A stretch of DNA of 64,000 bases, taken from positions 1 to 64,000 of IMG/VR virus record IMGVR_UViG_2827179085_000005, one strand, 5' to 3'. Under the pieces are notes generated by a model. It was not told the origin of the DNA. It did not search any database and saw only the letters and a program-made list of their open reading frames with translations. The stretch comes from a virus (lineage: Duplodnaviria > Heunggongvirae > Uroviricota > Caudoviricetes). This document shows positions 3,562 through 45,684 of this stretch, piece by piece (within the stretch, counting starts at the first letter, position 1; the number at the start of each line of letters is the position of its first letter). The translations under genes and the position numbers were made by a program.

Positions 3562-3590
3562 TTTACACATGCCATAGAAAGTACTATAAT
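3562..3590 (+). promoter_or_regulatory. sigmaA-type promoter TTTACA-17-TATAAT with conserved spacer motif
   Basis: TTTACAcatgccatagaaagtacTATAAT upstream of recJ-like gene RBS. Confidence 0.5.
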
Positions 3591-3605: not shown

Positions 3606-4538
3606 ATGGCAAATTGGACTAAGAGAAACAAAATCAAGGTCAAAGATGATTTGTTATTGATTGAGAAGTTGGCGATGGTTAGAGGGATCAAGAATCTCGA
3701 AGAGTGGATGAATCCTCCTTCAAGTTTTGTGAACAGTCCTTATAGTCTCTTGAATATGGATACGGCAGTCGAGATGATCCTTAAAGCTATTCACAAGCAG
3801 ATGAAAATTTGCATTGTTGCAGACATTGATACCGATGGCGTTTGCTCTACAGGGATTATGTACAATTATCTTCGCGAACTAACTCAAAACGTTGTCTACA
3901 TTCATGCACAGCGCAGTCAAGGTCATGGTCTGGAAACGGTTCTCGACAAAATTGAAGATGATGTTGACTTGGTTATCATTGTTGACTCATCATCAAACTC
4001 TGTTGAAGCTTGCAAGGAGCTTCATGATAAGGGTCTGCCAATAGTAATCATTGACCATCATGAGGTCGATAGAGAGAATCCATATGCTACAATTGTCAAC
4101 TGTCAGTTGGGCGACTATCCAAACAAACATTTGTCTGGTAGCGCGATGTGCTATAAGGTGTGTCAGGTTATTGATGAATATCTAAGCATTGAGCTAGCTG
4201 ATGACTTCCGCGATCTATCTGCAATCGGAATCGTTGCGGACATGATGGATGTTAGAAATATGGAGAATCGATATCTTATCTATAACGGAATCAATAATAT
4301 TAACAATCTTGGCATTAAAGAGATTTTAAAGCAAAGTAAAATCGACTTTAGTGAGGGGATTAATTCGACGAATATAAGTTTTAAGATTGCTCCAATCATC
4401 GGTGCATGTTCTCGTTTCGATAAAATTGAGTTAGCTCTTGAGCTGGTTACGTGCGACGACGAAGTTCGTGTGAAAGAACTGGTCAAAGAGATGATTTCAA
4501 TGAATGAAGAACGAAAGGCAAATCAAAAAATATGTTGA
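3606..4538 (+). CDS. recJ: RecJ-like ssDNA exonuclease, DHH domain part (frameshifted gene, N-terminal piece)
   Basis: DHH motifs (IVADIDTDG, IIDHHE); reading frame ends in an A6 run at 4525-4530. Confidence 0.65.
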   Translation: MANWTKRNKIKVKDDLLLIEKLAMVRGIKNLEEWMNPPSSFVNSPYSLLNMDTAVEMILKAIHKQMKICIVADIDTDGVCSTGIMYNYLRELTQNVVYIHAQRSQGHGLETVLDKIEDDVDLVIIVDSSSNSVEACKELHDKGLPIVIIDHHEVDRENPYATIVNCQLGDYPNKHLSGSAMCYKVCQVIDEYLSIELADDFRDLSAIGIVADMMDVRNMENRYLIYNGINNINNLGIKEILKQSKIDFSEGINSTNISFKIAPIIGACSRFDKIELALELVTCDDEVRVKELVKEMISMNEERKANQKIC

Positions 4539-5295
4539 AAATGCCATAGAAAGTATAGACGATTCTAACAATATCATTATCTATGTTGACAACAATATTG
4601 ACTCTGGCTTTCGTGGATTGATTGCAACTGAGTTTGTTGAACGCTTTAGCAAACCTGTTCTTGTCTTAGCGGAGTTTAAGGATGATGAAGGAAATGTTAT
4701 TGAATATAAAGGTAGTGCGAGAAGTGTTGGAGTACTTCCGTTGAAATCTATGTGCGAAAGTACAGAATTATTTAAGCTTACTCAGGGGCACGAAGGAGCA
4801 TTTGGTGTAGGATTTACTGTTGAAAACCTACAAGCGATAATTTCCTACTTCAATGACACTTTAGATAGTACAGACCTCCAGAAGAGTATCGTATATGACT
4901 TGGAATTGGAAGCTAGTGACATTGAAGAGATGGACATTAAACAGGTGGAGAAGTTTTCTAAGATTGTTGGACAGGGATTCAAAGAGCCAAAATTCTTAGT
5001 AAAAGGCTTGATTGTAGAAGAAGAGGAAACAAAGAAGCTTGGCAAGTATGTACGAGCTGTCATGGGAAGTAACAACGATACAGTTAAGATCCCATGTGAA
5101 GATGGATTTGCTCTGATGAAATTCCGCACACAGGATACCTACGCAGAGGATATTGAAGCTCACTTCTATGGTAATTTCGCAACCGAGATTGACGCAATCG
5201 GAAGTCTTAACTTAAATCGATTCTATCATGGTGGTCATAAGCGGTGGATTACAACGAAACAAGTCTTCCTCGAAGACTATCGTATCGCTGATTAA
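4504..5295 (+). CDS. recJ: RecJ-like exonuclease, DHHA1-like C-terminal piece (+1 frame continuation)
   Basis: Continues after A6 run; C-terminal FYHGGHKRW resembles DHHA1 GGGH motif; combined length ~573 aa as for RecJ-like proteins. Confidence 0.55.
   Translation: MKNERQIKKYVENAIESIDDSNNIIIYVDNNIDSGFRGLIATEFVERFSKPVLVLAEFKDDEGNVIEYKGSARSVGVLPLKSMCESTELFKLTQGHEGAFGVGFTVENLQAIISYFNDTLDSTDLQKSIVYDLELEASDIEEMDIKQVEKFSKIVGQGFKEPKFLVKGLIVEEEETKKLGKYVRAVMGSNNDTVKIPCEDGFALMKFRTQDTYAEDIEAHFYGNFATEIDAIGSLNLNRFYHGGHKRWITTKQVFLEDYRIAD
4555..4570 (+). repeat. variant copy of conserved 16-nt motif (ATGCCATAGAAAGTAT) inside recJ coding sequence
   Basis: sequence match to repeated motif. Confidence 0.4.
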
Positions 5296-9147: not shown

Positions 9148-10695
9148 ATGTCACACAGCTTGATGGAGCAATTTGGGGAGATCGTATACAGTAGCAATAA
9201 AGATTTGATTCAGGAGAATGCGAATACTGATGGCATGAGTCCTATGGGGATGCAATCGCTTTTTGCATCTACCAGTTCAAAGTATTTTGCGGTTGAAAAC
9301 TTATTGTCAGACGAAGCGAAAGAAGCTTATCTTGGTGGATACATACACATTCATGATCTTGATTTTTACGCAACTGGAACAACAACTTGTTGTCAAATAC
9401 CTCTAGCAAAGCTACTAAAGGGTGGATTTAATACTGGTCATGGTCATATGCGTGAGCCAAACAATATTATGAGTGCAATGGGCTTAACTTCTATCATTTT
9501 ACAAGCGAACCAGAACCAACAGCATGGTGGTCAATCAATACCAATGTTCGATTATGATCTGGCTCCATATGTGAAAAAGACATTCAACAATTTCTATTCG
9601 GAAGTCTCAGCAGAGATGCAAGAGGATGGAGTTATTGAATGGGAAGAAAAAGCAGAGGATAGAGCATGGAAGAAGACCGAAAGAGCAGTATACCAAGCAT
9701 GTGAAGCATTTATTCACAATAGTAATTCTATGCATAGTCGTGGCGGTTCCCAAACTCCATTCGTCTCCATTAACTTGGGAACAGACACTTCAATTGAAGG
9801 TCGTATGATTACAAAGAATCTTCTACTGGCTACTCAGGCTGGATTAGGAGATGGTGAAACACCTATCTTTCCTATCATTGTGTTCAAGATCAAAGAAGGA
9901 ATCAACTACAATCCTGATGACCCAAACCATGATTTATATCGTCTGTCACTAGAGACGACATCTAAGCGGCTTTTCCCGAACTATGTGTTCATCGATGCTC
10001 CATTTAATCTGAAATACTATGATGGAACACCTGAGAGCGAAATTGCAACTATGGGCTGTAGAACGAGAACAATCAGCAATGTTCATGGCAAAGAAACACC
10101 TATTGGCAGAGGAAACTTGTCGTTCACTACGATTAACCTTCCACTGTTGGCAATTGAATCAGAGGATGTATCAGACTTTTTCCGTAAGCTGGACAAGTAT
10201 GTTGATATCTCAATTAGACAGCTTTATGACCGATACCTGTATCAAGCACAAAAGACTGTTGCCAATTTCAAATTCCTTTATGGTCAAGGACTTTGGGCGA
10301 ATGGAGAAGATCTTGATATTAACGATCATCTGGCAGAAATATTGAAGCAAGGAACATTATCTGTTGGCTTTGTTGGATTGGCAGAAGCGCTTGTGGCTTT
10401 AATTGGAAAACACCATGGCGAAGATGAAACAGCATGGAGCCTTGGATTCGATATTATTAGATTCATTAGAGACAAAACTGATGTGGCTACGATGAAACAT
10501 AACATGAATTACACGACACTTGCTACACCAGCAGAATCTTTCGCTGGTAAGGCTTTGCGTCAAACGAAAAAGAAGCATGGTGAAATCAGAGGGGTAACAG
10601 ATAGAGAGTACTTCACGAATGGATTTCATGTTCCAGTTTACTATAAGATCAAAGCATTCGACAAAATAAAAAGGAAGCTCCATTCCATGAGCTGA
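9148..10695 (+). CDS. nrdD: anaerobic ribonucleoside-triphosphate reductase NrdD (N-terminal 515 aa; gene frameshifted near 3' end)
   Basis: Class III RNR-like sequence; frame ends in A-run 10663-10672 and continues in another frame. Confidence 0.8.
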   Translation: MSHSLMEQFGEIVYSSNKDLIQENANTDGMSPMGMQSLFASTSSKYFAVENLLSDEAKEAYLGGYIHIHDLDFYATGTTTCCQIPLAKLLKGGFNTGHGHMREPNNIMSAMGLTSIILQANQNQQHGGQSIPMFDYDLAPYVKKTFNNFYSEVSAEMQEDGVIEWEEKAEDRAWKKTERAVYQACEAFIHNSNSMHSRGGSQTPFVSINLGTDTSIEGRMITKNLLLATQAGLGDGETPIFPIIVFKIKEGINYNPDDPNHDLYRLSLETTSKRLFPNYVFIDAPFNLKYYDGTPESEIATMGCRTRTISNVHGKETPIGRGNLSFTTINLPLLAIESEDVSDFFRKLDKYVDISIRQLYDRYLYQAQKTVANFKFLYGQGLWANGEDLDINDHLAEILKQGTLSVGFVGLAEALVALIGKHHGEDETAWSLGFDIIRFIRDKTDVATMKHNMNYTTLATPAESFAGKALRQTKKKHGEIRGVTDREYFTNGFHVPVYYKIKAFDKIKRKLHSMS

Positions 10696-10769
10696 CCAAT
10701 GCAGGGCATATTACCTACATTGAACTTGATGGTGATGCATCGAAGAATATTGACGCTCTTGATGCAATA

Positions 10770-11003
10770 GTGCGAACCATGAAAGAAAGTGGAATTGGTT
10801 ATGGTTCTATCAACCACCCTGTAGATAGATGCTTGGAATGCAATCACAAGGGCATTATTAACAACGAGTGTCCTAAGTGTGGAAACGAAGATGAACACAG
10901 AATAGAGCGTATTCGTAGAATAACTGGATACCTTGTTGGCAGTATGGGTAAGTGGAATACTGCCAAGCAAGCAGAGGAACGAGATCGGGTGAAACACTCA
11001 TGA
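10770..11003 (+). CDS. nrdD: NrdD C-terminal segment (Zn-ribbon CxxC..CxxC and glycyl-radical RITGYL)
   Basis: Glycyl radical motif RITGYLVG and four Cys; in-frame upstream sequence (…HELTNAGHITYIELDG…) lacks a start and joins first piece after 1-nt indel. Confidence 0.7.
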   Translation: MRTMKESGIGYGSINHPVDRCLECNHKGIINNECPKCGNEDEHRIERIRRITGYLVGSMGKWNTAKQAEERDRVKHS

Positions 11004-11470
11004 AAGTAATGAACATCATCCATGACAGCATCGTTGATGGTGATGGTTTAAGGGCAGTCATATTCTTTGCTGGCTGTCCTCATCGTTGCCCTGGTTGTCA
11101 CAATCCGCAATCTTGGAACATGATGAACGGCACAGAGATGAGTGTTGATGAGATATTTAATAATGTAATGAGCAACCCAATGAGTAACGTCACTTTTAGT
11201 GGTGGAGATCCATTTATGCAATCCAGCAGAGAACTTGCTGAGTTAGCAAGAAAAATTAAAGATGCTGAGAAAAGTATCTGGTGTTTTACTGGATACAGCT
11301 TCGACCAAGTTTGCGACTTAGAAGTAATTAAATATATTGATGTTCTTGTCGATGGGAAATTTGAAATAGATAAAAGAGATTTAGATTTAGCCTATAAAGG
11401 CAGTTCAAATCAAAGAATCATAGACGTACAACGAAGTCTGATTGAAGATAAGATTATCATATGGGGGTAA
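11000..11470 (+). CDS. nrdG: anaerobic RNR activating protein NrdG (radical SAM)
   Basis: CPHRCPGC radical-SAM cysteine motif; ATGA overlap with nrdD stop. Confidence 0.8.
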   Translation: MKVMNIIHDSIVDGDGLRAVIFFAGCPHRCPGCHNPQSWNMMNGTEMSVDEIFNNVMSNPMSNVTFSGGDPFMQSSRELAELARKIKDAEKSIWCFTGYSFDQVCDLEVIKYIDVLVDGKFEIDKRDLDLAYKGSSNQRIIDVQRSLIEDKIIIWG

Positions 11471-11474
11471 TGAG

Positions 11475-11972
11475 ATGAAGGGATATTTAGCAAATGGATT
11501 ATTTACGATTGGTGATAGAATGGTCAACGAGGAAATTGCATTATCACTGAGAACAGCTTACGTTGAGACAACGGGAGGAGTCTTAGACTTGTTTGTTCCG
11601 CAGGAACAAGGTATCAACGATAAGTCTACGTATGCTGATAGCGTGTTGATTGCACAGCTTGATTCAGAAGCGCTTATGGCTAGTGATTTCTTAGTCGCTG
11701 TCATTGATGGTGTTGAGATTGATTCTGGTGTAGCCGCTGAGATTGGAATGTTTGCGACGACAGGCAAGCCTATCTTTACTCTCTATTCGGATATTAGGCA
11801 AGAGGGAAGATCAAATGATATGAAAATTCAAGCATTAGTTGAAGACGGGACAGAGAATCAATTTATGTATCGGAACCTATTTGTTTTAGGCTTAATCAAG
11901 AAGAACGGTTCTGTGTATTCGTCTATTAATTCACTTGTTGAAGATTTTGTAAAGCACATCAACGAAAAATAG
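11475..11972 (+). CDS. nucleoside 2-deoxyribosyltransferase-like protein
   Basis: MKGYLANGLF N-terminus and DSGVAAEIGMF (catalytic Glu) resemble NDT family. Confidence 0.5.
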   Translation: MKGYLANGLFTIGDRMVNEEIALSLRTAYVETTGGVLDLFVPQEQGINDKSTYADSVLIAQLDSEALMASDFLVAVIDGVEIDSGVAAEIGMFATTGKPIFTLYSDIRQEGRSNDMKIQALVEDGTENQFMYRNLFVLGLIKKNGSVYSSINSLVEDFVKHINEK

Positions 11973-12017
11973 GTGCAATCTTATCATAAATGAGCAATCA
12001 AAGTCAACTATTTTTTC

Positions 12018-12046
12018 TTGTCAAAACCTAAGCAACATGTTATATT
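12018..12046 (+). promoter_or_regulatory. sigmaA-type promoter TTGTCA-17-TATATT
   Basis: consensus-like hexamers with 17-bp spacer. Confidence 0.45.
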
Positions 12047-12094
12047 GAATGTAGAATCTGGAATATGAAAATACACTTTACTTCTGAATAATAA

Positions 12095-12346
12095 ATGCAC
12101 TTTATACCGATGATGTATGTTGGGGGTGCATTTATTATGAAAAAAACGGAGAAAAAGAATACAAGGAGGCTGAGTAGAATGAGTACTGTAGCCGAAAAAT
12201 TGGGCGGTAACATTGTAATAGATTTTAACGCATTTACCGACAAAAAGAAGATAATTAATGCACTCAATAAGAAGCCTGTTAAATTCAGCGAAATGTCCGA
12301 AAAAGATCGGTATGAAACTATGCAAGCTATGCGAGACGAAGATTAA
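12095..12346 (+). CDS. hypothetical protein (true start possibly ATG 12180 after GGAGG RBS)
   Basis: ORF, RBS. Confidence 0.3.
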   Translation: MHFIPMMYVGGAFIMKKTEKKNTRRLSRMSTVAEKLGGNIVIDFNAFTDKKKIINALNKKPVKFSEMSEKDRYETMQAMRDED

Positions 12347-12373
12347 ACCAACTTTAGATAAGGGGTCAGCGAA

Positions 12374-12928
12374 ATGAATGCATTTTCTGATTATGATAAG
12401 TGGTCTGAGATATGTAAACAAGGAATCTTTGAAGCATGGGTTCCATGGGTTTCGGACAGACCACTTGAATTTTTTATTCCTAAACATGACAATCCAAAAG
12501 AAGGCATTCTTACCGATGTTATTTCCGACAAGACCGAAGAGTCACAGCAAAAAATTATTACTGATTTAAAGAGAAGAAAGGTTGTTGTTTTAACGTCTGA
12601 CGATCAATGTCAAGATACATATTTCTCTGATGTTTTGGTTGCAAAGATAGTTTCAATCAAAGACCATCATAGAACGCAAGATTGGTATAAAAATTATCTG
12701 CTAAATGACATACATCCATTCTATGTACATATTCCAGCTAATGGTGTGTTGAAGGAAAGTTACATAAATATTGCTCAACCGATGACGATTGGCAAGAAGA
12801 TGCTGATTAAGAATCACAATATGATTCTTCCTGCTGATCGTATGGTTCTAGTTGAAAAAAGATTTACTGAAATGATTGATTTGGGAGTAATTAAAGTAAG
12901 TGGAAATAACCAAGTTGTCAATGAATAA
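12374..12928 (+). CDS. hypothetical protein
   Basis: ORF with RBS; followed by strong terminator. Confidence 0.45.
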   Translation: MNAFSDYDKWSEICKQGIFEAWVPWVSDRPLEFFIPKHDNPKEGILTDVISDKTEESQQKIITDLKRRKVVVLTSDDQCQDTYFSDVLVAKIVSIKDHHRTQDWYKNYLLNDIHPFYVHIPANGVLKESYINIAQPMTIGKKMLIKNHNMILPADRMVLVEKRFTEMIDLGVIKVSGNNQVVNE

Positions 12929-12930
12929 AA

Positions 12931-12970
12931 TACGGTGAAGGGCAAACGCCTTTCACCGTATTTTTTGTTT
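12931..12970 (+). terminator. rho-independent terminator
   Basis: 13-bp stem TACGGTGAAGGGC/GCCTTTCACCGTA followed by TTTTTTGTTT. Confidence 0.8.
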
Positions 12971-13095
12971 ATTCAGTATAAAATATTACAGGCTGACTGT
13001 AACTGCCACTATGTACGATGGTGGTAACGTACCGTCCATGATGGGACATTACTTGAAATTCTTTAAAAGTATTATAAAAAGGTTGCTGATAAGTG

Positions 13096-13124
13096 TTGAC
13101 AGATACTAAAGAAAGTATTATTAT
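13096..13124 (+). promoter_or_regulatory. sigmaA-type promoter TTGACA-17-TATTAT with motif variant in spacer
   Basis: TTGACAgatactaaagaaagtatTATTAT. Confidence 0.5.
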
Positions 13125-13264
13125 AGTAAATGTAAGGCGAACGCAAACAACGAAAACAACGAATGAGGTGAACGAAATGTTAGCAGTTACATGTGCCATG
13201 GAGGACAATAATAACACCAATGGCATTTACGATGGGAACAACAAAGTAGTTAAATCAGAGGTGA

Positions 13265-14677
13265 TTGATGTTGGGCGTAACAGCTCTGGCGAAAAACACA
13301 ACTAAAACTAAGTCAGTTGCCAAAGAAAGTATAACACTGATAATATCGAAGTTGAAGGAACGCATAAAGAGTTCTGGATACGAAGTGTACGAGGATTATG
13401 TAACTGAACGATATATGCCGACAGATAAGCTGGTTGGAACGATGTACATGGTCGAACGTATGGATTACGGTTTTCACATCTATTATATTCATGAGCCTAG
13501 CGAAACAAATAGGATCGCTGGCAAAGATGGAATTGTAACAGAAATGTACTATGACCTTAGAAACAAGGTGTATTGGATCAAGCGGAATACAAAAGATGTT
13601 AAGTTTAGTGAAAGAAACGTTGATAGTATTTTTCCGCAAGATCGTGTGAAGCGCAAGGAAGTGTTTAAATTCCTTTCGACAAAAGGAAATACTGGATTGT
13701 ATGAGTCAGCATATCGGTATCTTGGAGCAATGGGGATGGAGCGAACAGAAATGTTCGGAAGATTCTTTCATAGGCTCATAACAGAATATAGCTACTACGA
13801 ATTACTGCATAAAGCAGGGATTCCGGTAGATGGTAACTTGTTAATCAGAAACAGTGATGGCAAATCACCAATGGAGATTCTTGGATTGTCCAAAACACAA
13901 TGGAAAATCGCAAATAAGTTCGGTGTTTCCGTTAATGAGTTACAGGGATACAGGAATAATGAAGCTGGCGACAATAGGCTGATAAACTATCTTAACTACA
14001 TTAAGTCTCTTGATCTAGAGTATGGGGTTGAGAAGATAAGAGAGTTTGTTTATAGCGAAATATCGTACATATATTCTCAACATACGTACTATAACTCAGC
14101 ACTATCAATTGCAAAGAGATACAACTTGCCTGAGAAATACTTAATTAAATACATCTACTTCGAGTGCGATGTTTCCCAAGGTCTTTCTTCTAGTACAGCC
14201 TTATCTCAATATAGCGACTATATCAGGATGGCTACTGAAATGGGGTATGAGCGGTTTGACAGATATCCTAAGTTTCTAAGAACATATCATGATATTGTTG
14301 CAAGAAACTATAAGGTAAAGCTCAATGAAGAAGAACAAAAGCAATGGGATGAGGTCTGCGAGGGTAATACGGTATTCAAATACGCTATGGATGGCTACAG
14401 GATTTTCACTCCAATGAAGACAGAAGAATTGGTTCGTGAAGGAAATGTCTTGGGTCATTGCGTAGGAAGCTATGTGGGTAAGGTGAGACAAGGAACATCA
14501 GTAATTGCATTCTTACGTGATGCCGATGATATTGAAAAGCCGCTTGTCACCATAGAAATACAAGGTAAATCTATTATTCAGGCAAAAGCGAAGATGAACA
14601 ATCCTCCTACGAGGGAACAAAAAGACTTTATCGAAAAGTTTGCTAAGAAATTCGAATTAGAAATTAAATCATATTAA
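13265..14677 (+). CDS. hypothetical protein (470 aa)
   Basis: long ORF; conserved-looking C-terminal GHCVGSYVGKVRQG segment of unknown family. Confidence 0.5.
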   Translation: MMLGVTALAKNTTKTKSVAKESITLIISKLKERIKSSGYEVYEDYVTERYMPTDKLVGTMYMVERMDYGFHIYYIHEPSETNRIAGKDGIVTEMYYDLRNKVYWIKRNTKDVKFSERNVDSIFPQDRVKRKEVFKFLSTKGNTGLYESAYRYLGAMGMERTEMFGRFFHRLITEYSYYELLHKAGIPVDGNLLIRNSDGKSPMEILGLSKTQWKIANKFGVSVNELQGYRNNEAGDNRLINYLNYIKSLDLEYGVEKIREFVYSEISYIYSQHTYYNSALSIAKRYNLPEKYLIKYIYFECDVSQGLSSSTALSQYSDYIRMATEMGYERFDRYPKFLRTYHDIVARNYKVKLNEEEQKQWDEVCEGNTVFKYAMDGYRIFTPMKTEELVREGNVLGHCVGSYVGKVRQGTSVIAFLRDADDIEKPLVTIEIQGKSIIQAKAKMNNPPTREQKDFIEKFAKKFELEIKSY

Positions 14678-14690
14678 GGGTGATGTGTGA

Positions 14691-15029
14691 ATGGTAGCAA
14701 TCAAAGGTCAATCATACGAACAAACAAAGGCAATCGATGGATTTCCATACAATGCAGTAGGGGAAATATGGTGTGTCAATAACATGCAGGGGAAGTACAC
14801 TATTCTAAAGCATGAAGGCATTGGATTGGGTGTTGATGAGAATGAGCTGAAAGAGCACTTCAAACTTGTTGGATACTCTTACTCTAACGACAATGGCGAG
14901 GAAGAGTGTGATGAGTATGAAGAAGAAGAGGAAGAAGAATACGATGATGAAGATCATCAAGATGAAGATGCTGACAACAAGCAAATAAGCAAATTCAAGT
15001 CGTTCTTGCGTAAAATAGGGTTTAAATAA
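14691..15029 (+). CDS. hypothetical protein with poly-acidic C-terminal tail
   Basis: ORF; EEEEEEYDDEDHQDEDAD tract. Confidence 0.45.
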   Translation: MVAIKGQSYEQTKAIDGFPYNAVGEIWCVNNMQGKYTILKHEGIGLGVDENELKEHFKLVGYSYSNDNGEEECDEYEEEEEEEYDDEDHQDEDADNKQISKFKSFLRKIGFK

Positions 15030-15032
15030 TAC

Positions 15033-15062
15033 TTGACCTTATGCTAAAGAAAGTACTATAAT
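15033..15062 (+). promoter_or_regulatory. sigmaA-type promoter TTGACC-18-TATAAT with conserved spacer motif
   Basis: TTGACCttatgctaaagaaagtacTATAAT upstream of nadV. Confidence 0.55.
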
Positions 15063-15077
15063 ATAGGGGGAAATAAA

Positions 15078-16496
15078 ATGCTAAAAGACCTTCGTAGTAA
15101 CCCAATTATGCTTACAGATGCTTATAATCTTTCTCACCAGCGGTTGAAGATCAATACCGATTGGGAAGTATCACACATGTACAATCGCTCGAAACCAATG
15201 TTATTGTTCGGACTGTTGGAAATCGCCAACAATATCTTGAAGACGCAAATCACAATCGAGATGATTGACCAAGCAGAAGCACAAGCAAACCGCATGGGAT
15301 TGATCTTCCCTCGTGAATTGTGGGTACGAGTAGTAAACGAATGTGATGGATGGATTCCAATTGAAATCCAAACGCTTCCAGAAGGAACATGGTGTCCTGT
15401 AGGAACGCCATTTGCACAGATTCGTAATACAATCAGAGGTTTTGGTGAACTTGTAACTTGGTTCGAAGGCGAATGGATGCATGGTTACTTCCCATCAACT
15501 GCCGCAACACAAGCATATCGTATGCGAAAATATCTTGAACAGAAGCAACGCCAATACGGTTATGATGACAGCTTTATGCTTCGTCTTCACAGCTTCGGAT
15601 TCCGAGGTCATCGTAGTCTTGAAGATGCGTATTGGGCAGGAATTTCGTGGAACTTGTTCTTGTATGGTACTGATGATTTCCACACAGCAGTCCATACTCC
15701 GAGTGCGAAAATTGTGAGTATCGCGGCTCTGGCACACAAGGTGACACAACAGTTCGATAACGAATATGAGGGCTACAAACATGCGATCAAGGCAACAGCA
15801 GATGCAGGAGAGAAGGTCGTTGCAATCGTAATTGATACATACGATGCACATCGTTTCCTTAATGAGTACCTGATTCCTCTCGCAAAATATGCCGCAGAAC
15901 TTGGTGTTCACATCGTAATTCGTCCAGACAGTGGAGACACATGGGAGCAAGTAGTTATTGCTTACCGATTTATATCGCGTCACTATCTGCCAATCACGAA
16001 TGTTTCGGCAATCATTGGCGAAGGAATGGATTTCGAGAATGTGAAGAAAGCAGATGCATACTTTGAGCAACATGGTGTACCGCTTAACTTTGTATCTTAC
16101 GGTGTTGGTGGAGGATTCTACAACTACTCAAACCGCGATCTGCTTGGATGGGCAATGAAAACAGCGTTCTCAAACGGAAAGAGTCGCATGAAGTTCTCAG
16201 AGAATCCTATCAAGAGAAGCATTCCAGATGTTGTAGGACTTTATCGAAACTCCTATGGTGATTTGATTGTAGGAAAAGAGGACGATGTTCCAGAATCCGC
16301 AAATCTTTACCGCACGATTTACAGCTATACAGATGGTATGGATGTTCCATTCATGATCGAGTATGGTGACAGCGAATGGAAAGAAACTCAGGAACGTGCG
16401 CTAGCGGCGAATACAGAACAAGCGAATATTTATCTCAGTGATGAGATTCGCGCTGAAATTGGAGAGTTCCAAAGACGATACAGAAATCGGGTGTAA
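15078..16496 (+). CDS. nadV: nicotinamide phosphoribosyltransferase (NadV/NAMPT)
   Basis: N-terminal IMLTDAYNLSH (cf. NAMPT ILNTDSYKVTH), ~470 aa type II PRTase-like. Confidence 0.8.
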   Translation: MLKDLRSNPIMLTDAYNLSHQRLKINTDWEVSHMYNRSKPMLLFGLLEIANNILKTQITIEMIDQAEAQANRMGLIFPRELWVRVVNECDGWIPIEIQTLPEGTWCPVGTPFAQIRNTIRGFGELVTWFEGEWMHGYFPSTAATQAYRMRKYLEQKQRQYGYDDSFMLRLHSFGFRGHRSLEDAYWAGISWNLFLYGTDDFHTAVHTPSAKIVSIAALAHKVTQQFDNEYEGYKHAIKATADAGEKVVAIVIDTYDAHRFLNEYLIPLAKYAAELGVHIVIRPDSGDTWEQVVIAYRFISRHYLPITNVSAIIGEGMDFENVKKADAYFEQHGVPLNFVSYGVGGGFYNYSNRDLLGWAMKTAFSNGKSRMKFSENPIKRSIPDVVGLYRNSYGDLIVGKEDDVPESANLYRTIYSYTDGMDVPFMIEYGDSEWKETQERALAANTEQANIYLSDEIRAEIGEFQRRYRNRV

Positions 16497-16498
16497 AA

Positions 16499-17068
16499 AT
16501 GATAAGATGCCAGAGAAAGTACGACCTTGGATTCGTTATCGGAAGGTTTCAGATGTTACACGCTGGACATGAACACCTCATTAATTCCGCGAAAGAAAAG
16601 TGCGAGAACCTACTTGTATTAGTAGGTTCCGCACAAGAAAGTGGAACGACGAGAAACCCTTTTGATATTAAGAAACGAGTTGACATGATGGACAAGTTGT
16701 TTGGAGACAAACCAAACATTCATATCGGCTTTGTCGCTGATTACACCAATGAGAACGACCATTCGCACGAATGGGGAAGATATTTGCTTCGACAAGTTGA
16801 TGGTTGGCGAAAGTTCCATGGTATAGACGCAAAGGTTGATTGCATGATCTATGGCAACGACGAGGAACGCAATGGTTGGTTTGACCCTAAAGATATTGAA
16901 GGAATCACACAGATTCAACTCGACAGGGCATACATTCCAATCAGCGCAACCCAAATGCGTGGATACATGGCGTGGAATCAAAAAGGTTTGTGGATGCAAT
17001 ATGCAAATCCAAAGCTTCATGTGTTTTATGAAGAACTAAGGCAAAAATTATTCGAGGTGAAACCATGA
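16499..17068 (+). CDS. nicotinamide/nicotinate mononucleotide adenylyltransferase (NMNAT/NadM-like)
   Basis: GFVIGRFQMLHAGHEHLI = (H/T)xGH nucleotidyltransferase motif. Confidence 0.65.
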   Translation: MIRCQRKYDLGFVIGRFQMLHAGHEHLINSAKEKCENLLVLVGSAQESGTTRNPFDIKKRVDMMDKLFGDKPNIHIGFVADYTNENDHSHEWGRYLLRQVDGWRKFHGIDAKVDCMIYGNDEERNGWFDPKDIEGITQIQLDRAYIPISATQMRGYMAWNQKGLWMQYANPKLHVFYEELRQKLFEVKP

Positions 17069-17607
17069 CAGTAAAGCATGAATCTTTATATAAGACAAAA
17101 TGGGTCGAACTGATGCAACGCACTTCGGATGAAGATGGTACATACATCTACATTCGTGAGCCATGGTTGATTAATGGCAAAGCTATCTCAGTTCTTCCAC
17201 TCCGCAGGGACGAATCAGGATATATTCAATTCCTTCTTCGTGGCGAAATGGCTGAAAAACCTGTCTTTGGAACAGTTAAAGGCGGTATGGACAAAGAAAG
17301 CGAAACACCTCGCCAATGTGCAGTTCGTGAACTGCTTGAAGAGGCTGGATACATTGCAGATGAAACTCAAATGATTCCACTAGGAAAGGTTAGAACATCG
17401 AAGCTGAATACTACTGAAATGTATTTGTTTGCTGTTGATGTGACAGACCTTCCTTACGAGGAACCAAAAGGCGATGGCACAGCAAATGAAGCAAATGCTT
17501 ACTGCCAATGGGTTTCTGAGCGTGACGCAATTGGATACGAAGACCCTGTGATTCATACATCGATGTTGCGCTTTTATAATTGGGTCAATGAAGAAGGAGA
17601 AATGTAA
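17065..17607 (+). CDS. Nudix hydrolase (ADP-ribose pyrophosphatase-like)
   Basis: Nudix box GGMDKESETPRQCAVRELLEEAGY. Confidence 0.7.
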   Translation: MTVKHESLYKTKWVELMQRTSDEDGTYIYIREPWLINGKAISVLPLRRDESGYIQFLLRGEMAEKPVFGTVKGGMDKESETPRQCAVRELLEEAGYIADETQMIPLGKVRTSKLNTTEMYLFAVDVTDLPYEEPKGDGTANEANAYCQWVSERDAIGYEDPVIHTSMLRFYNWVNEEGEM

Positions 17608-17865
17608 ATGGGAATCGTGCTAGGTATTGTAGGTATCGTCGCAAGTATTCTGCTTGGTCTATACATGGGTGTTTATGTGTGTTTCGTTGGTGGAGCAGTT
17701 GATATTATTCATGAAATCGTTAATGCAGTCAATGGAGCAGATTTAAGTGTGTTAGCGATCTTGTGGGGAATTGTGAAGATGAGTATTTCTGGATTGGTTG
17801 GATGGATTTCCTTCTACGTGTTATTCATCCCATCAGCAGTTGTACTAGGACTCAAAAGCAAGTAA
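17608..17865 (+). CDS. small membrane protein (2 TM)
   Basis: hydrophobic segments. Confidence 0.4.
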   Translation: MGIVLGIVGIVASILLGLYMGVYVCFVGGAVDIIHEIVNAVNGADLSVLAILWGIVKMSISGLVGWISFYVLFIPSAVVLGLKSK

Positions 17866-18589: not shown

Positions 18590-18621
18590 AATGGTGGGAG
18601 AAATAGAGTGAACAAAAATAC

Positions 18622-26254: not shown

Positions 26255-26283
26255 TTGACTACTGCTAAAGAAAGTACTATAAT
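26255..26283 (+). promoter_or_regulatory. sigmaA-type promoter TTGACT-17-TATAAT with conserved spacer motif
   Basis: TTGACTactgctaaagaaagtacTATAAT. Confidence 0.6.
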
Positions 26284-32012: not shown

Positions 32013-32041
32013 TTGACCATTGCCAAAGAAAGTACTATAAT
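32013..32041 (+). promoter_or_regulatory. sigmaA-type promoter TTGACC-17-TATAAT with conserved spacer motif
   Basis: TTGACCattgccaaagaaagtacTATAAT. Confidence 0.6.
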
Positions 32042-42107: not shown

Positions 42108-42136
42108 TTGACAAGCAATTAAACCAAAGGTATAAT
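42108..42136 (+). promoter_or_regulatory. sigmaA-type promoter TTGACA-17-TATAAT
   Basis: perfect consensus hexamers. Confidence 0.65.
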
Positions 42137-45449: not shown

Positions 45450-45684
45450 TTTAAATGACCACCTTTGTCAATATATTGTATGTCTTATTAGTTTCACTAC
45501 CTATATGTAGTTCCCTACTAAATCATAATATTCAGAACCGATGCTTGTCAAGATTTTTATCATAATAATTTCCTACATTAACAATTTTATTTTTTCTCAT
45601 TTGAATACGGTAAATAAGTACTTCTTTGAATTTGCAAAAGTAGTATTTATATTAATTTATTTACATCGTATTATTCAACAACAA

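What the first reader, a model, noticed from the sequence alone, without database searches (positions are those of the whole stretch)
15033..17607. Complete NAD+ salvage/reconstitution module (NadV + NMNAT + Nudix) in the early region
Three adjacent, translationally coupled genes behind their own strong promoter encode:
- Nicotinamide phosphoribosyltransferase (IMLTDAYNLSH...).
- An NMN adenylyltransferase ((H/T)xGH motif).
- A Nudix pyrophosphatase (canonical Nudix box).

Such phage NAD+ reconstitution pathways (KVP40 NadV/NatV; NARP2-type) have been shown to counter NAD+-depleting defence systems (Thoeris, DSR, SIR2-containing systems). The split NMNAT/Nudix arrangement in a Bacillus phage is notable.
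Basis: partly seen in the sequence, partly recalled or inferred. Interest (0 to 1): 0.6.

Follow-up and report, generated by a model that had tools for sequence, protein, structure and literature searches.

The report
Phage three-gene NAD+ rebuilding cassette
A large Paenibacillus phage carries three adjacent genes that should rebuild the cofactor NAD+ from its breakdown products; this is a known kind of phage counter-measure, here assembled independently from Bacillales-type genes.

Summary
Window 15078-17607 holds three tightly packed genes: a Nampt/NadV homologue (472 aa), a NadM-type NMN adenylyltransferase (189 aa) and a Nudix hydrolase (180 aa). Their catalytic motifs are intact, and a near-consensus sigma-A promoter-like site lies upstream.

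By gene content the module fits NARP2 (Nampt + Nmnat), but four details need correcting:
- **Host:** identical genes sit on ~141 kb contigs of Paenibacillus alvei isolates, and the nearest deposited phage is Brevibacillus phage Sundance. This is not a Bacillus phage.
- **NadV:** it is at most 29% identical to any deposited phage NadV. It belongs to a 100%-bootstrap Bacillales clade with chromosomal Paenibacillus/Bacillus NadVs, outside both the KVP40-type Nampt clade and the NARP1 Namat clade.
- **NMNAT:** the unfused form is not a fission product. Nearly all the closest listed homologues are ~190-aa standalone proteins, and a Paenibacillus chromosome has an nrtR-nadV-NMNAT operon.
- **Nudix:** it is not the NadM-type domain. 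It is a NudF/NUDT5-like ADP-ribose pyrophosphatase fold from a small uncharacterised clade.

The same ordered cassette recurs in at least three other ~133-138 kb Bacillales elements, each with different flanking genes. The anti-defence function is inferred and untested. Novelty: new variant of a known kind. Interest: moderate.

The parts
15033..15062 (+). Sigma-A (sigma-70-type) promoter-like site, TTGACC-18 nt-TATAAT, in the 48-nt gap upstream of NadV
   Evidence: 11/12 match. Sites of at least 11/12 are enriched on the + strand, 6 against 1.5 +/- 1.3 expected. It is not conserved in relatives: the B. wiedmannii element has only a 20-nt gap there. Function is not shown.
15078..16496 (+). NadV / Nampt-family nicotinamide phosphoribosyltransferase, 472 aa. 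Predicted reaction: nicotinamide + PRPP -> NMN.
   Evidence: Family hits: Pfam NAPRTase + NAMPT_N; phrog_448, 4e-56. The best PDB hits are all Nampt, 2e-24.

Residues mapped to mammalian NAMPT numbering:
- D16 -> D14
- Y18 -> Y16
- F193 -> F173
- R196 -> R176
- D219 -> D199
- H247 -> H220
- R311 -> R282
- D313 -> D284
- G353 -> G314
- D354 -> E315
- G383/G384 -> G344/G345
- R392 -> R353
- K400 -> K361

It sits in a Bacillales clade with 100% bootstrap support.
16499..17068 (+). Standalone NadM-type NMN adenylyltransferase, 189 aa. Predicted reaction: NMN + ATP -> NAD+ + PPi.
   Evidence: CTP_transf_like 7.9e-12. NCBIfam NadM / archaeal NMNAT models match the N-terminal part. Best PDB hits are 2qjo (NMNAT domain of NadM-Nudix, 1.4e-9) and the archaeal NMNATs 1f9a and 1ej2.

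Motifs:
- GRFQMLHAGH at residues 15-24
- TRNPF at residues 51-55
- ISATQMR at residues 148-154

It is 37% identical to the standalone NMNAT next to chromosomal nadV in Paenibacillus.
17065..17607 (+). Standalone Nudix hydrolase, 180 aa, with a NudF/NUDT5-like ADP-ribose pyrophosphatase fold. Predicted reaction: ADP-ribose -> AMP + ribose-5-phosphate.
   Evidence: - NUDIX 2.4e-10. Nudix box at residues 74-96.
- Family profile against PDB: B. methanolicus ADPRase/ACT 6e-7 and NUDT5 8e-6, aligned from residue 6.
- AF2 model pLDDT 93.
- The top 50 Foldseek PDB hits are all ADP-ribose/ADP-sugar/ADP-compound pyrophosphatases or the B. methanolicus NudF/ACT Nudix hydrolase. The best is NUDT5 3bm4, E 1e-10, TM 0.75.
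- W13, R30/E31, G136-D137-G138 and E142 are conserved in the family.

Best explanation
The three genes form a compact NAD+ salvage/reconstitution cassette carried by a ~141 kb Sundance-like phage (probably a phage-plasmid) of Paenibacillus alvei.

**Proposed mechanism.**
1. NadV joins nicotinamide to PRPP to give NMN.
2. The standalone NadM-type NMNAT adenylates NMN with ATP to give NAD+.
3. The NudF/NUDT5-like Nudix enzyme splits ADP-ribose into AMP and ribose-5-phosphate.
4. The host's own PRPP synthetase turns ribose-5-phosphate back into PRPP for NadV.

Together this would recycle both products of NADase-type defence effectors (nicotinamide and ADP-ribose) into NAD+. The outcome is that of NARP1, reached with the classical chemistry of NARP2.

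**Likely selective function.** It keeps NAD+ up during infection of cells whose TIR-, SIR2- or SEFIR-type defences deplete it.

**Status of each step.**
- Shown here: gene presence, family membership, conserved catalytic residues, the fold of the Nudix protein, and conservation and mobility of the cassette.
- Inferred: substrate specificities, expression timing, the contribution of host Prs, and the anti-defence effect.

**Origin.** The cassette was assembled from Bacillales-type genes independently of the KVP40-type NARP2.
For: **Enzyme identities and intact active sites.**
- NadV.
- NMNAT.
- Nudix.

**Functional linkage.** The same ordered trio NadV-NMNAT-Nudix occurs in four lineages:

| Element | Size | Neighbourhood | NadV / NMNAT / Nudix identity to window |
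|---|---|---|---|
| P. alvei phage (this window) | ~141 kb | after NrdDG/PcfJ | reference |
| P. peoriae pPlas1 | 137 kb, circular | after RuvC/RecA | 69 / 47 / 38% |
| Brevibacillus laterosporus contig | 133 kb | after RuvC/RecA | 72 / 50 / 40% |
| B. wiedmannii CP032366.1 | 137.6 kb | after DNA ligase | 60 / 41 / 38% |

- The flanking small genes are unrelated between elements.
- Contig-length fingerprints show all three families on the same contigs at least five more times (141141, 9589, 54367, 143072, 8162).

**Pathway logic.**
- No Adps/Prs-like gene is in the 64 kb window: tblastn with Nigalana Adps gives a best E of 0.37.
- An adjacent NMNAT only makes sense if NadV produces NMN.

**Cellular precedent.** Paenibacillus xanthanilyticus has a chromosomal nrtR-nadV-NMNAT cluster.

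**Experimental precedent for the pathway type.** KVP40 Nampt + Nmnat overcame Thoeris, DSR and SIR2-HerA, and about 1.1% of phages carry NARP2 (bioRxiv 10.1101/2024.02.11.579819).

**Variable region.** Sundance, which is otherwise syntenic, lacks the module at this position. That is typical of accessory or counter-defence genes.
Against: - No experiment bears on this cassette, and no member of the Bacillales NadV clade or of this Nudix clade has been characterised, as far as my searches show.
- Two Nampt positions differ from mammalian NAMPT: E246 -> A219 and D354 -> E315.
- The ADPRase signature proline about 15 residues after the Nudix box is absent; it aligns with Ser/Thr.
- HMM alignments stop before the putative catalytic-base loop, so ADP-ribose specificity is not secure.
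- Other members of the Nudix clade occur without NadV/NMNAT: Tenacibaculum phage pT24, a TIR-linked bacterial locus, and fusions to DRT-like, DHH and RyR domains. The Nudix protein may therefore have a more general ADPr-derivative role.
- These elements appear to persist as plasmid-like replicons. A benefit to the carrier cell is an alternative selective reason.
- Only 64 of ~141 kb of the genome was inspected for a Prs or Adps gene.
Confidence: 0.65

Rival explanations
1. The cassette is an auxiliary metabolic or carrier-benefit module rather than a counter-defence. It raises NAD+ supply for phage replication in general. Alternatively, it is expressed from the resident ~140 kb phage-plasmid and gives the host a two-step non-deamidating nicotinamide salvage route.
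For: - The cassette lies inside the nucleotide-metabolism/replication arm, with RNR, NrdDG, deoxyribosyltransferase, ligase and dUTPase.
- Related elements are complete circular 'plasmids' or whole contigs in isolate assemblies.
- KVP40 NARP2 raised NAD+ even without any defence system.
- The closest cellular homologues are ordinary NrtR-regulated salvage genes.
Against: - The module is absent from the syntenic relative Sundance and hops between positions. That is more typical of accessory arms-race genes than of core metabolism.
- Adding an ADP-ribose-type Nudix, which the chromosomal operon lacks, fits recycling of NADase products.
- The phage ligase is ATP-dependent, not NAD-dependent, so no obvious phage enzyme needs extra NAD+.
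Confidence: 0.22
2. The Nudix protein does not feed ribose-5-phosphate into the pathway. Instead it acts on other dinucleotides (NADH, NAD+, NAD-capped RNA, FAD, Ap3A), either to regulate NAD+ levels or for an unrelated house-cleaning role. It is linked to NadV-NMNAT only by co-regulation.
For: - Iyer et al. 2022 (PMC9503650) propose that the NadM Nudix domain regulates NAD+ by cleaving it, and note that T4 NudE acts on FAD, Ap3A and ADPR.
- The ADPRase proline signature is missing.
- Clade members occur in non-NAD-salvage contexts.
Against: - Best sequence and structure matches are consistently ADP-ribose/ADP-sugar pyrophosphatases. They include the N-terminal beta domain and the adenine-stacking Trp.
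- No NudC-type or RppH-type match appears among the top hits.
- An NAD+-cleaving enzyme in an NAD+-building cassette would be futile.
- Gene order is strictly conserved in four lineages.
Confidence: 0.1
3. The NadV homologue is really a NARP1-type Namat that joins nicotinamide to ADPR-pyrophosphate, with an Adps encoded elsewhere in the genome.
For: - Namat and Nampt are homologous.
- The window protein is about equally distant from both: 26% identity to Nigalana Namat and 26% to KVP40 Nampt.
- Only 64 of ~141 kb was searched.
Against: - In all four NARP1 reference phages Adps lies immediately upstream of Namat. Here the neighbour is an NMNAT, which NARP1 does not need.
- No Adps-like sequence is in the window.
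- The protein falls outside the 96%-supported Namat clade.
- Its N-terminal 90 residues align to Nampt but not to Namat.
- Osterman et al. found no phage with both pathways.
Confidence: 0.03

Closest known systems
NARP2 (NAD+ reconstitution pathway 2): Vibrio phage KVP40 NadV (Nampt) + NatV (NMNAT-Nudix). Osterman et al. 2024 preprint 10.1101/2024.02.11.579819; Lee, Li & Miller 2017, PMC5388814 (as cited in PMC9503650).
   Same: - The same two core reactions are predicted: Nam + PRPP -> NMN, then NMN + ATP -> NAD+.
- The same three protein superfamilies are involved: Nampt, HIGH-type NMNAT and Nudix.
- There is no Adps.
- It is phage-borne.
   Different: - The window has three separate genes in the order NadV-NMNAT-Nudix. 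The four NARP2 reference phages with adjacent genes have a fused 332-371 aa NMNAT-Nudix upstream of NadV.
- NadV is only 26-29% identical to KVP40-type NadVs and lies in a separate Bacillales clade.
- The Nudix protein belongs to a different Nudix clade, NudF/NUDT5-like with an N-terminal beta domain. The NadM-type domains match only over the Nudix box, at 3-9 bits.
- No experimental data exist for this cassette.
Chromosomal nrtR-nadV-nadM(NMNAT) salvage cluster of Paenibacillus (e.g. P. xanthanilyticus, locus L012)
   Same: - These are the closest cellular relatives: NadV 54% and NMNAT 37% identical.
- The order NadV then standalone ~185-aa NMNAT is the same.
- They share the Bacillales NadV clade.
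   Different: - The chromosomal cluster carries the NrtR regulator (Nudix + winged helix), not a catalytic ADPRase-like Nudix.
- The phage Nudix matches NrtR only at the Nudix box, at 14 bits.
- The phage copy has no regulator.
NudF/YqkG/NUDT5 family ADP-ribose (ADP-sugar) pyrophosphatases, e.g. human NUDT5 (3bm4, 2dsc), Mt-ADPRase (1mqw), B. methanolicus ACT/NudF (8zr8, 9jax, 8wv3)
   Same: - The overall fold matches, including the N-terminal three-stranded domain (TM 0.75).
- The Nudix box is present.
- A Trp aligns with the adenine-stacking W28 of NUDT5, and an R-E pair follows the N-terminal strands.
- A conserved acidic residue (E142) follows a GDG loop where these enzymes carry their catalytic base. 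That role rests on my knowledge of the family.
   Different: - Sequence identity is only 15-22%.
- The signature Pro after the Nudix box is missing.
- The protein belongs to a separate clade of about 300 representatives at 50% identity, with none characterised.
NARP1 (Adps + Namat), e.g. Bacillus phage Nigalana, Staphylococcus Kayvirus, Listeria LMTA-148, Felixounavirus LMP34
   Same: - The expected net outcome is the same if the Nudix step works: ADPR + nicotinamide (+ATP) are turned back into NAD+.
- Namat is homologous to NadV.
   Different: - There is no Adps.
- NadV lies outside the Namat clade.
- The route would go through free ribose-5-phosphate, host Prs, PRPP and NMN rather than ADPR-PP.

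Membership tests
NARP2 (Nampt + Nmnat phage pathway) | Phage genome encodes a Nampt-family enzyme with an intact active site | tested here: met
   all core NAMPT residues are conserved (D16, Y18, F193, R196, D219, H247, R311, D313, G383/384, R392). Two substitutions: D354E and E246A.
NARP2 (Nampt + Nmnat phage pathway) | Same genome encodes an Nmnat | tested here: met
   The adjacent gene 16499-17068 is a NadM-type NMNAT with HxGH and ISxTxxR-like motifs.
NARP2 (Nampt + Nmnat phage pathway) | No Adps partner (distinguishes NARP2 from NARP1) | tested here: met
   tblastn of Nigalana Adps against the 64 kb window gives a best E of 0.37. The neighbouring genes are not Prs-like. The remaining ~77 kb of the genome was not inspected.
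NARP2 (Nampt + Nmnat phage pathway) | Nampt falls in the KVP40-type phage Nampt clade of the Namat/Nampt tree | tested here: not met
   NJ tree with 15 sequences, 430 columns and 100 bootstraps. The window NadV sits in a separate Bacillales clade with 100% support, together with chromosomal NadVs. It is outside both the phage NARP2 groups and the Namat clade.
NARP2 (Nampt + Nmnat phage pathway) | Restores NAD+ and overcomes NAD+-depleting defence systems | not testable with these tools
   Requires expression or knock-in experiments like those in bioRxiv 10.1101/2024.02.11.579819.
NadM-Nudix / NatV bifunctional NMNAT-ADPRase | NMNAT and Nudix domains in one polypeptide | tested here: not met
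   They are separate ORFs overlapping by ATGA. The NMNAT's nearest listed relatives are nearly all ~185-200 aa standalone proteins.
NadM-Nudix / NatV bifunctional NMNAT-ADPRase | Nudix moiety of the NadM-associated clade | tested here: not met
   The Nudix family profile gives only 3-9 bits, over the Nudix box alone, against four fused phage proteins. Neither 2qjo nor 2qjt appears among PDB profile hits at E <= 0.01.
NARP1 (Adps + Namat) | Prs-like Adps adjacent to a Namat-clade transferase | tested here: not met
ADP-ribose pyrophosphatase subfamily of Nudix (NudF/NUDT5/Mt-ADPRase) | Nudix box GX5EX7REUXEEXGU with the metal-binding glutamates | tested here: met
   Residues 74-96, GMDKESETPRQCAVRELLEEAGY. 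R88, E89, E92 and E93 are nearly invariant in the family.
ADP-ribose pyrophosphatase subfamily of Nudix (NudF/NUDT5/Mt-ADPRase) | N-terminal beta-sheet domain preceding the Nudix fold, and overall fold match | tested here: met
   The AF2 model has strands at residues 3-10, 15-21 and 25-31. The Foldseek top 50 are all ADP-ribose/ADP-sugar/ADP-compound pyrophosphatases or the B. methanolicus NudF/ACT Nudix hydrolase, with ~190-200 aligned columns and TM up to 0.75.
ADP-ribose pyrophosphatase subfamily of Nudix (NudF/NUDT5/Mt-ADPRase) | Aromatic residue stacking the adenine (NUDT5 W28) | tested here: met
   The profile alignment puts the family's KTKWVEL (W13) against NUDT5's GKWVKLEK. The role of W28 rests on my knowledge of NUDT5 structures.
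ADP-ribose pyrophosphatase subfamily of Nudix (NudF/NUDT5/Mt-ADPRase) | Conserved proline ~15-16 residues downstream of the Nudix box (Dunn et al. 1999 signature, recalled from memory) | tested here: not met
   NUDT5's 'DPG' aligns with the family's 'rsS/TSK'. No Pro is conserved there in alignment A1.
ADP-ribose pyrophosphatase subfamily of Nudix (NudF/NUDT5/Mt-ADPRase) | Catalytic-base glutamate on the loop after strand beta-6 (NUDT5 E166, Mt E142, Ec E162) | tested here: inconclusive
   A nearly invariant GDG...E142 lies in the right region, but the HMM alignments end at position 137. No residue-level structural superposition was available.
NadM-type (archaeal-like) NMN adenylyltransferase | GxFxPxHxGH and downstream SxTxxR nucleotide-binding motifs on a ~170-190 aa HIGH-superfamily fold | tested here: met
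   GRFQMLHAGH at 15-24 and ISATQMR at 148-154. The alignment to 2qjo and 1f9a covers GRFQ..H.GH and GSAQ...T..NPF. NMN versus NaMN preference was not testable.

The most novel reading that the evidence does not exclude
The NudF/NUDT5-like Nudix protein is more than a recycling enzyme. It also hydrolyses ADP-ribose-derived immune signals made by TIR-domain defence proteins, such as the Thoeris cyclic-ADPR isomers or His-ADPR. The cassette would then be a dual counter-defence: it destroys the alarm signal and rebuilds NAD+ from the debris.

The leads for this reading are:
- A 42%-identical clade member lies two genes from a TIR-domain protein in a bacterial contig.
- Clade members are fused to DRT-like, DHH and RyR nucleotide-processing domains.
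- The clade occurs in phages without NadV.
Probability: 0.07. Interest if true: 0.75.

Novelty: new variant of a known kind. Interest (0 to 1): 0.4.

Why it matters
- **Independent origin.** If the cassette works as inferred, NAD+ reconstitution has been invented by phages at least once more. This version was captured from a Gram-positive host-type nadV-NMNAT operon, with a free-standing ADP-ribose pyrophosphatase added.
- **Closed recycling loop.** Together with host Prs, the cassette would turn both NADase products back into NAD+ using only classical enzymes. That would blur the NARP1/NARP2 distinction.
- **Blind spot in surveys.** The cassette spreads among a poorly catalogued group of ~133-154 kb Sundance-like phage-plasmids of Paenibacillus, Brevibacillus and the Bacillus cereus group.
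  - None of these is in the phage collection searched here at the DNA level.
  - Surveys based on deposited phage genomes (NARP2 in ~1.1% of phages) therefore miss it.
- **Testable targets.** It offers a compact three-gene unit for testing in B. subtilis, and an uncharacterised Nudix clade with a specific biochemical hypothesis.

Tried and rejected
- **DNA-level identification.** Megablast and blastn of the region, and of 24 kb elsewhere in the window, against 50,697 phage records found nothing. Protein-level searches were needed.
- **PcfJ-like neighbour as a synteny anchor.** Its best hit (phage f2b1, 54%) has no NAD genes nearby. This was not informative.
- **Fission of a NatV-like fusion.** Rejected.
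- **Phage Nudix derived from the NrtR Nudix domain of the chromosomal operon.** Rejected: the match is 14 bits and covers the Nudix box only.
- **NARP1-type Namat.** Rejected.
- **NARP3 (PnuC + NadR).** There is no NadR kinase domain or PnuC here. A PQ-loop membrane protein lies near the cassette only in the B. wiedmannii element.
- **A conserved fourth gene.** The 85-aa membrane protein whose ATG abuts the Nudix stop, and the other flanking small ORFs, have no counterparts in the P. peoriae, Brevibacillus or B. wiedmannii elements.
- **Promoter conservation.** Relatives do not keep a promoter-like site, or even a sizeable gap, upstream of NadV.
- **Nudix fusion partners as a Rosetta stone.** None of the ten scanned fusion proteins carries an NMNAT or Nampt domain.
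- **Literature search for phage Nudix enzymes acting on Thoeris signals.** Nothing relevant was found.

Full report
**1. What is in the sequence.**

Between 15078 and 17607 the + strand carries three ORFs of 472, 189 and 180 codons.

- They are packed tightly. NadV stops at 16494-16496 and the next ATG is at 16499. The second and third genes overlap in ATGA at 17065-17068. Each start is preceded by a purine-rich Shine-Dalgarno-like run.
It lies in the 48-nt gap after the preceding gene.
- The generic promoter scan finds no more sites than shuffles give (25 against 23). Near-perfect sites (at least 11/12) are enriched on the coding strand, 6 against 1.5 +/- 1.3 expected, and at least four of the six sit directly upstream of genes.
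- The promoter is therefore plausible. Three points argue against a self-contained operon:
  - The leader would be only about 8-9 nt long.
  - No + strand terminator-like site lies between 12964 and 20000.
  - The next gene's ATG (17608) abuts the Nudix stop.
- The three genes are best seen as a block inside a longer transcription unit.

**2. Family assignment and catalytic residues.**

*Gene 1 (NadV).*
- It hits Pfam NAPRTase and NAMPT_N and PHROG 448, 'nicotinamide phosphoribosyl transferase', at 4e-56.
- In PDB it matches only Nampt structures strongly (2e-24), with nicotinate PRTase far behind at 5e-4.
- The alignment to a 491-residue mammalian NAMPT chain in native numbering (2gvl) and to 6tac maps the active site as follows: D16/Y18 -> D14/Y16, F193 -> F173, R196 -> R176, D219 -> D199, H247 -> H220, R311/D313 -> R282/D284, G383/G384 -> G344/G345, R392 -> R353, K400 -> K361.
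- The only changes are D354 -> E315 and E246 -> A219. The roles of these residues come from my knowledge of the NAMPT structural literature.

*Gene 2 (NMNAT).*
- It is a HIGH-superfamily nucleotidyltransferase (CTP_transf_like, 7.9e-12).
- Its best NCBIfam and PDB matches are NadM and archaeal NMN adenylyltransferases.
- It carries GRFQMLHAGH (15-24), TRNPF (51-55) and ISATQMR (148-154).

*Gene 3 (Nudix).*
- It has a canonical Nudix box at residues 74-96.

**3. What genome this is.**

- The window has no DNA-level relative among 50,697 deposited phages.
- Its left arm encodes helicase, primase, RecJ-like nuclease, class I and class III RNR, ATP-dependent ligase and a DnaE-like polymerase. Its right arm encodes tail proteins and an endolysin.
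- The polymerase is 73.8% identical to that of Brevibacillus phage Sundance (134 kb). Gene order is collinear with Sundance, with 48-77% amino-acid identity for the core replication genes.
- All three cassette genes occur in the same order on a 140,989-bp contig and other contigs of Paenibacillus alvei isolate assemblies. NadV and the Nudix protein are confirmed 100% identical.
- Window 5079-26494 is 99.986% identical to that contig. The host is therefore Paenibacillus, not Bacillus.
- Between thioredoxin and the nucleotidyltransferase/ligase block, Sundance has three opposite-strand genes. The window instead has NrdD/NrdG, a deoxyribosyltransferase, a PcfJ-like gene, the NAD cassette and small ORFs. 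The cassette therefore sits in a variable island.

**4. The cassette is a conserved, mobile three-gene unit.**

- NadV homologues at 60-85% identity lie on many ~127-154 kb contigs from Paenibacillus, Brevibacillus, the Bacillus cereus group, Peribacillus and Viridibacillus.
- The neighbourhoods I fetched show the same ordered trio in three further elements:
  - Brevibacillus laterosporus, 133 kb contig.
  - B. wiedmannii CP032366.1, 137.6 kb. Its third gene is a divergent Nudix, scoring 196 bits against the family profile.
  - P. peoriae pPlas1, a 137,220-bp circular replicon, with one extra small ORF inserted.
- The flanks differ: after NrdDG/PcfJ in P. alvei, after RuvC/RecA in P. peoriae and Brevibacillus, and after ligase in B. 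wiedmannii. The adjacent small genes share no similarity.
- Identities to the window fall in the order NadV (60-72%) > NMNAT (41-50%) > Nudix (38-40%).
- Both PLSDB records are typed non-mobilizable. Together with the phage structural genes, this suggests extrachromosomal phage-plasmids.

**5. Where the parts come from.**

- *NadV.* A neighbour-joining tree of 15 NadV/Nampt/Namat proteins, each labelled by its neighbouring gene, resolves three groups:
  - A NARP1 Namat clade (96% bootstrap). All four members have a Prs-like Adps immediately upstream.
  - The phage NARP2 Nampts. These have fused NMNAT-Nudix genes of 332-371 aa upstream.
  - A 100%-supported Bacillales clade. The window, Brevibacillus and B. 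wiedmannii elements form a 98% subgroup, sister to chromosomal NadVs of B. methanolicus and P. xanthanilyticus.
- The best deposited phage NadV is only 29% identical.
- In P. xanthanilyticus the chromosomal gene lies in an nrtR-nadV-NMNAT cluster, and that NMNAT is a standalone 185-aa protein. It is 37% identical to the phage NMNAT.
- *NMNAT.* 614 NMNAT homologues were detected. Nearly all of the 120 closest listed are 185-200 aa standalone proteins, and they include gut Firmicutes at 46-48% identity. The unfused NMNAT is the native form in this lineage, not a split NatV.

**6. The Nudix protein.**

- It has only two tblastn hits among deposited phages, both records of Tenacibaculum phage pT24, and 25 word-indexed homologues.
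- An exhaustive profile search finds 304 representatives at 50% identity at E <= 1e-30, and only 1837 at E <= 1e-3, out of 1.84 billion. It is a small, distinct Nudix clade.
- The family profile matches, from residue 6 onward, the B. methanolicus ADP-ribose pyrophosphatase/MDH-activator (6e-7), NUDT5 (8e-6), Bdellovibrio NudF and NudE. It does not match the NadM-fused domains 2qjo or 2qjt.
- A confident AF2 model (pLDDT 93) retrieves only ADP-ribose/ADP-sugar/ADP-compound pyrophosphatases and the B. methanolicus NudF/ACT Nudix hydrolase in the top 50 PDB matches. NUDT5 scores E 1e-10 with TM 0.75.
- The model and alignments include the N-terminal three-stranded domain. W13 aligns with the Trp of NUDT5's GKWVKLEK segment.
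- The Nudix-box glutamates, a GDG loop and E142 are nearly invariant in the family.
- Evidence against strict ADPRase membership:
  - The signature proline after the Nudix box is absent.
  - The catalytic-base position could not be aligned.
- Against fused phage NMNAT-Nudix proteins the profile scores 3-9 bits over the Nudix box alone. Against NrtR it scores 14 bits.
- The third gene is therefore a NudF/NUDT5-like enzyme recruited separately.

**7. Mechanism proposed.**

1. NadV: nicotinamide + PRPP -> NMN.
2. NMNAT: NMN + ATP -> NAD+.
3. Nudix: ADP-ribose -> AMP + ribose-5-phosphate.
4. Host Prs: ribose-5-phosphate + ATP -> PRPP.

- The first two steps are strongly supported by homology, active-site conservation and operon logic. 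An adjacent NMNAT is pointless for a Namat, and no Adps is present in the window.
- The third step is supported by fold and profile evidence but not by every signature.
- The fourth step is inferred from standard metabolism.
- The anti-defence purpose is inferred from three things:
  - The experimental demonstration for KVP40 NARP2.
  - The cassette's accessory, mobile behaviour.
  - The addition of an ADPR-type Nudix that the cellular operon lacks.
- The main rival is a general metabolic or carrier-cell benefit, which these data cannot exclude. It gains some weight from the plasmid-like lifestyle of the elements.

**8. Comparison with what is known, and novelty.**

- Published surveys describe phage NadM as an NMNAT fused to a Nudix domain. 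They describe phage Nudix domains as mainly T4 NudE-type or NadM-type (PMC9503650).
- NARP2 is defined as Nampt + Nmnat. NARP3 is PnuC + NadR (PMC13464706).
- The present cassette meets the gene-content definition of NARP2. It fails two narrower tests: membership of the KVP40-type Nampt clade, and the fused NadM-type Nudix.
- I file it as a new variant of a known kind. It has the same logic, an independent origin, a different architecture and a non-orthologous Nudix.
- A specialist would not be very surprised by it, so interest is moderate (0.4).

**9. Loose ends.**

- A 42%-identical clade member lies two genes from a TIR-domain protein in a bacterial metagenomic contig.
- Other clade members are fused to DRT-like, DHH/DHHA1 or RyR+HAD domains.
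- These hints tie the clade to ADPr-derivative chemistry more broadly. They leave open, at low probability, that the enzyme also destroys TIR-made signals.
- I found no literature on such a phage activity.

Noticed in passing
window 4524-4529, 10667, 18613, 20710: The window differs from the NCBI P. alvei contig (L003) only by three single-A deletions in A-runs. The one at 10667 truncates NrdD to 515 aa, against 618 aa in L003. The one at 18613 shifts the start of the RlaP-like nucleotidyltransferase. The RecJ-like gene is also split (3606-4538 / 4504-5295) at an A6 run, whereas it is a single 563-564-aa ORF in L003 and Sundance. These look like homopolymer sequencing errors or natural frameshifts. 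None touches the NAD cassette.
   Followed up: partly
L008 (B. wiedmannii CP032366.1), L027 (P. peoriae pPlas1 NZ_CP061173.1), L003, L009: Sundance-like genomes occur as complete ~137 kb replicons annotated as non-mobilizable plasmids, one of them recorded as circular. They also occur as ~133-154 kb contigs in many Paenibacillus, Brevibacillus and Bacillus cereus-group isolate assemblies. This looks like a sizeable, largely uncatalogued group of phage-plasmids that is absent from the phage collection at the DNA level.
   Followed up: partly
L017/L018 3354-6091 (JGI metagenome contigs, 71 and 127 kb): A 42%-identical member of the same Nudix clade (P0020) lies in the order TIR_2 protein (409 aa), 57-aa ORF, Nudix, overlapping 189-aa ORF, then a ~2000-aa protein. 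The locus is next to COX1/COX2, so the context is cellular. It may be a TIR-based conflict system with a Nudix component.
   Followed up: partly
L008 9491-10141: In the B. wiedmannii element a 216-aa PQ-loop repeat membrane protein (Pfam 9e-15) lies three genes downstream of the cassette. A SWEET/PnuC-like transporter near NAD salvage genes could import a pyridine precursor. No counterpart exists in the window.
   Followed up: no
P0004, P0008, P0016, P0018 (Nudix homologues of 252-261 aa): Some cassette-linked Nudix homologues carry a conserved ~80-residue N-terminal extension (pattern VGDxVEV...GxxGxV...GVxF...GHxC...GWYI) with no Pfam match.
   Followed up: partly
L012 5900-6000 (P. xanthanilyticus chromosome, upstream of nadV): Two copies of a TATAGTC(G/A)AT...GAC(A)AA-like motif lie between nrtR and nadV. 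They are probably NrtR operators. The phage cassette has neither the regulator nor the motif.
   Followed up: no
window 17608-17865: An 85-aa, strongly hydrophobic protein (about three predicted membrane spans) starts at the base after the Nudix stop codon (TAAATG) and has its own Shine-Dalgarno-like sequence. It has no family match and no counterpart next to the cassette in other elements.
   Followed up: yes
window 3562-3590, 13096-13124, 15033-15062, 26255-26283, 32013-32041, 42108-42136 (+ strand); 45522-45551 (- strand): Near-consensus sigma-A promoter-like sites (at least 11/12) are about four-fold enriched on the + strand. At least four sit just upstream of genes, two of them with the -10 only 15-16 nt from the start codon (RecJ-like and NadV).
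   Followed up: partly
window 9148-14677: Compared with Sundance, the same variable island also carries NrdD/NrdG (anaerobic RNR), a nucleoside 2-deoxyribosyltransferase (11442-11972) and a PcfJ-like protein (13265-14677) at a different position. A strong terminator-like hairpin (12927-12964) and a promoter-like site (13096) precede the PcfJ-like gene.
   Followed up: partly
window 14691-15029: The gene immediately upstream of the cassette encodes a 112-aa protein with an extremely acidic tail (EEEEEEEYDDEDHQDEDAD). It has only a weak PHROG match of unknown function. It could be a DNA mimic or anti-restriction-like protein.
   Followed up: no
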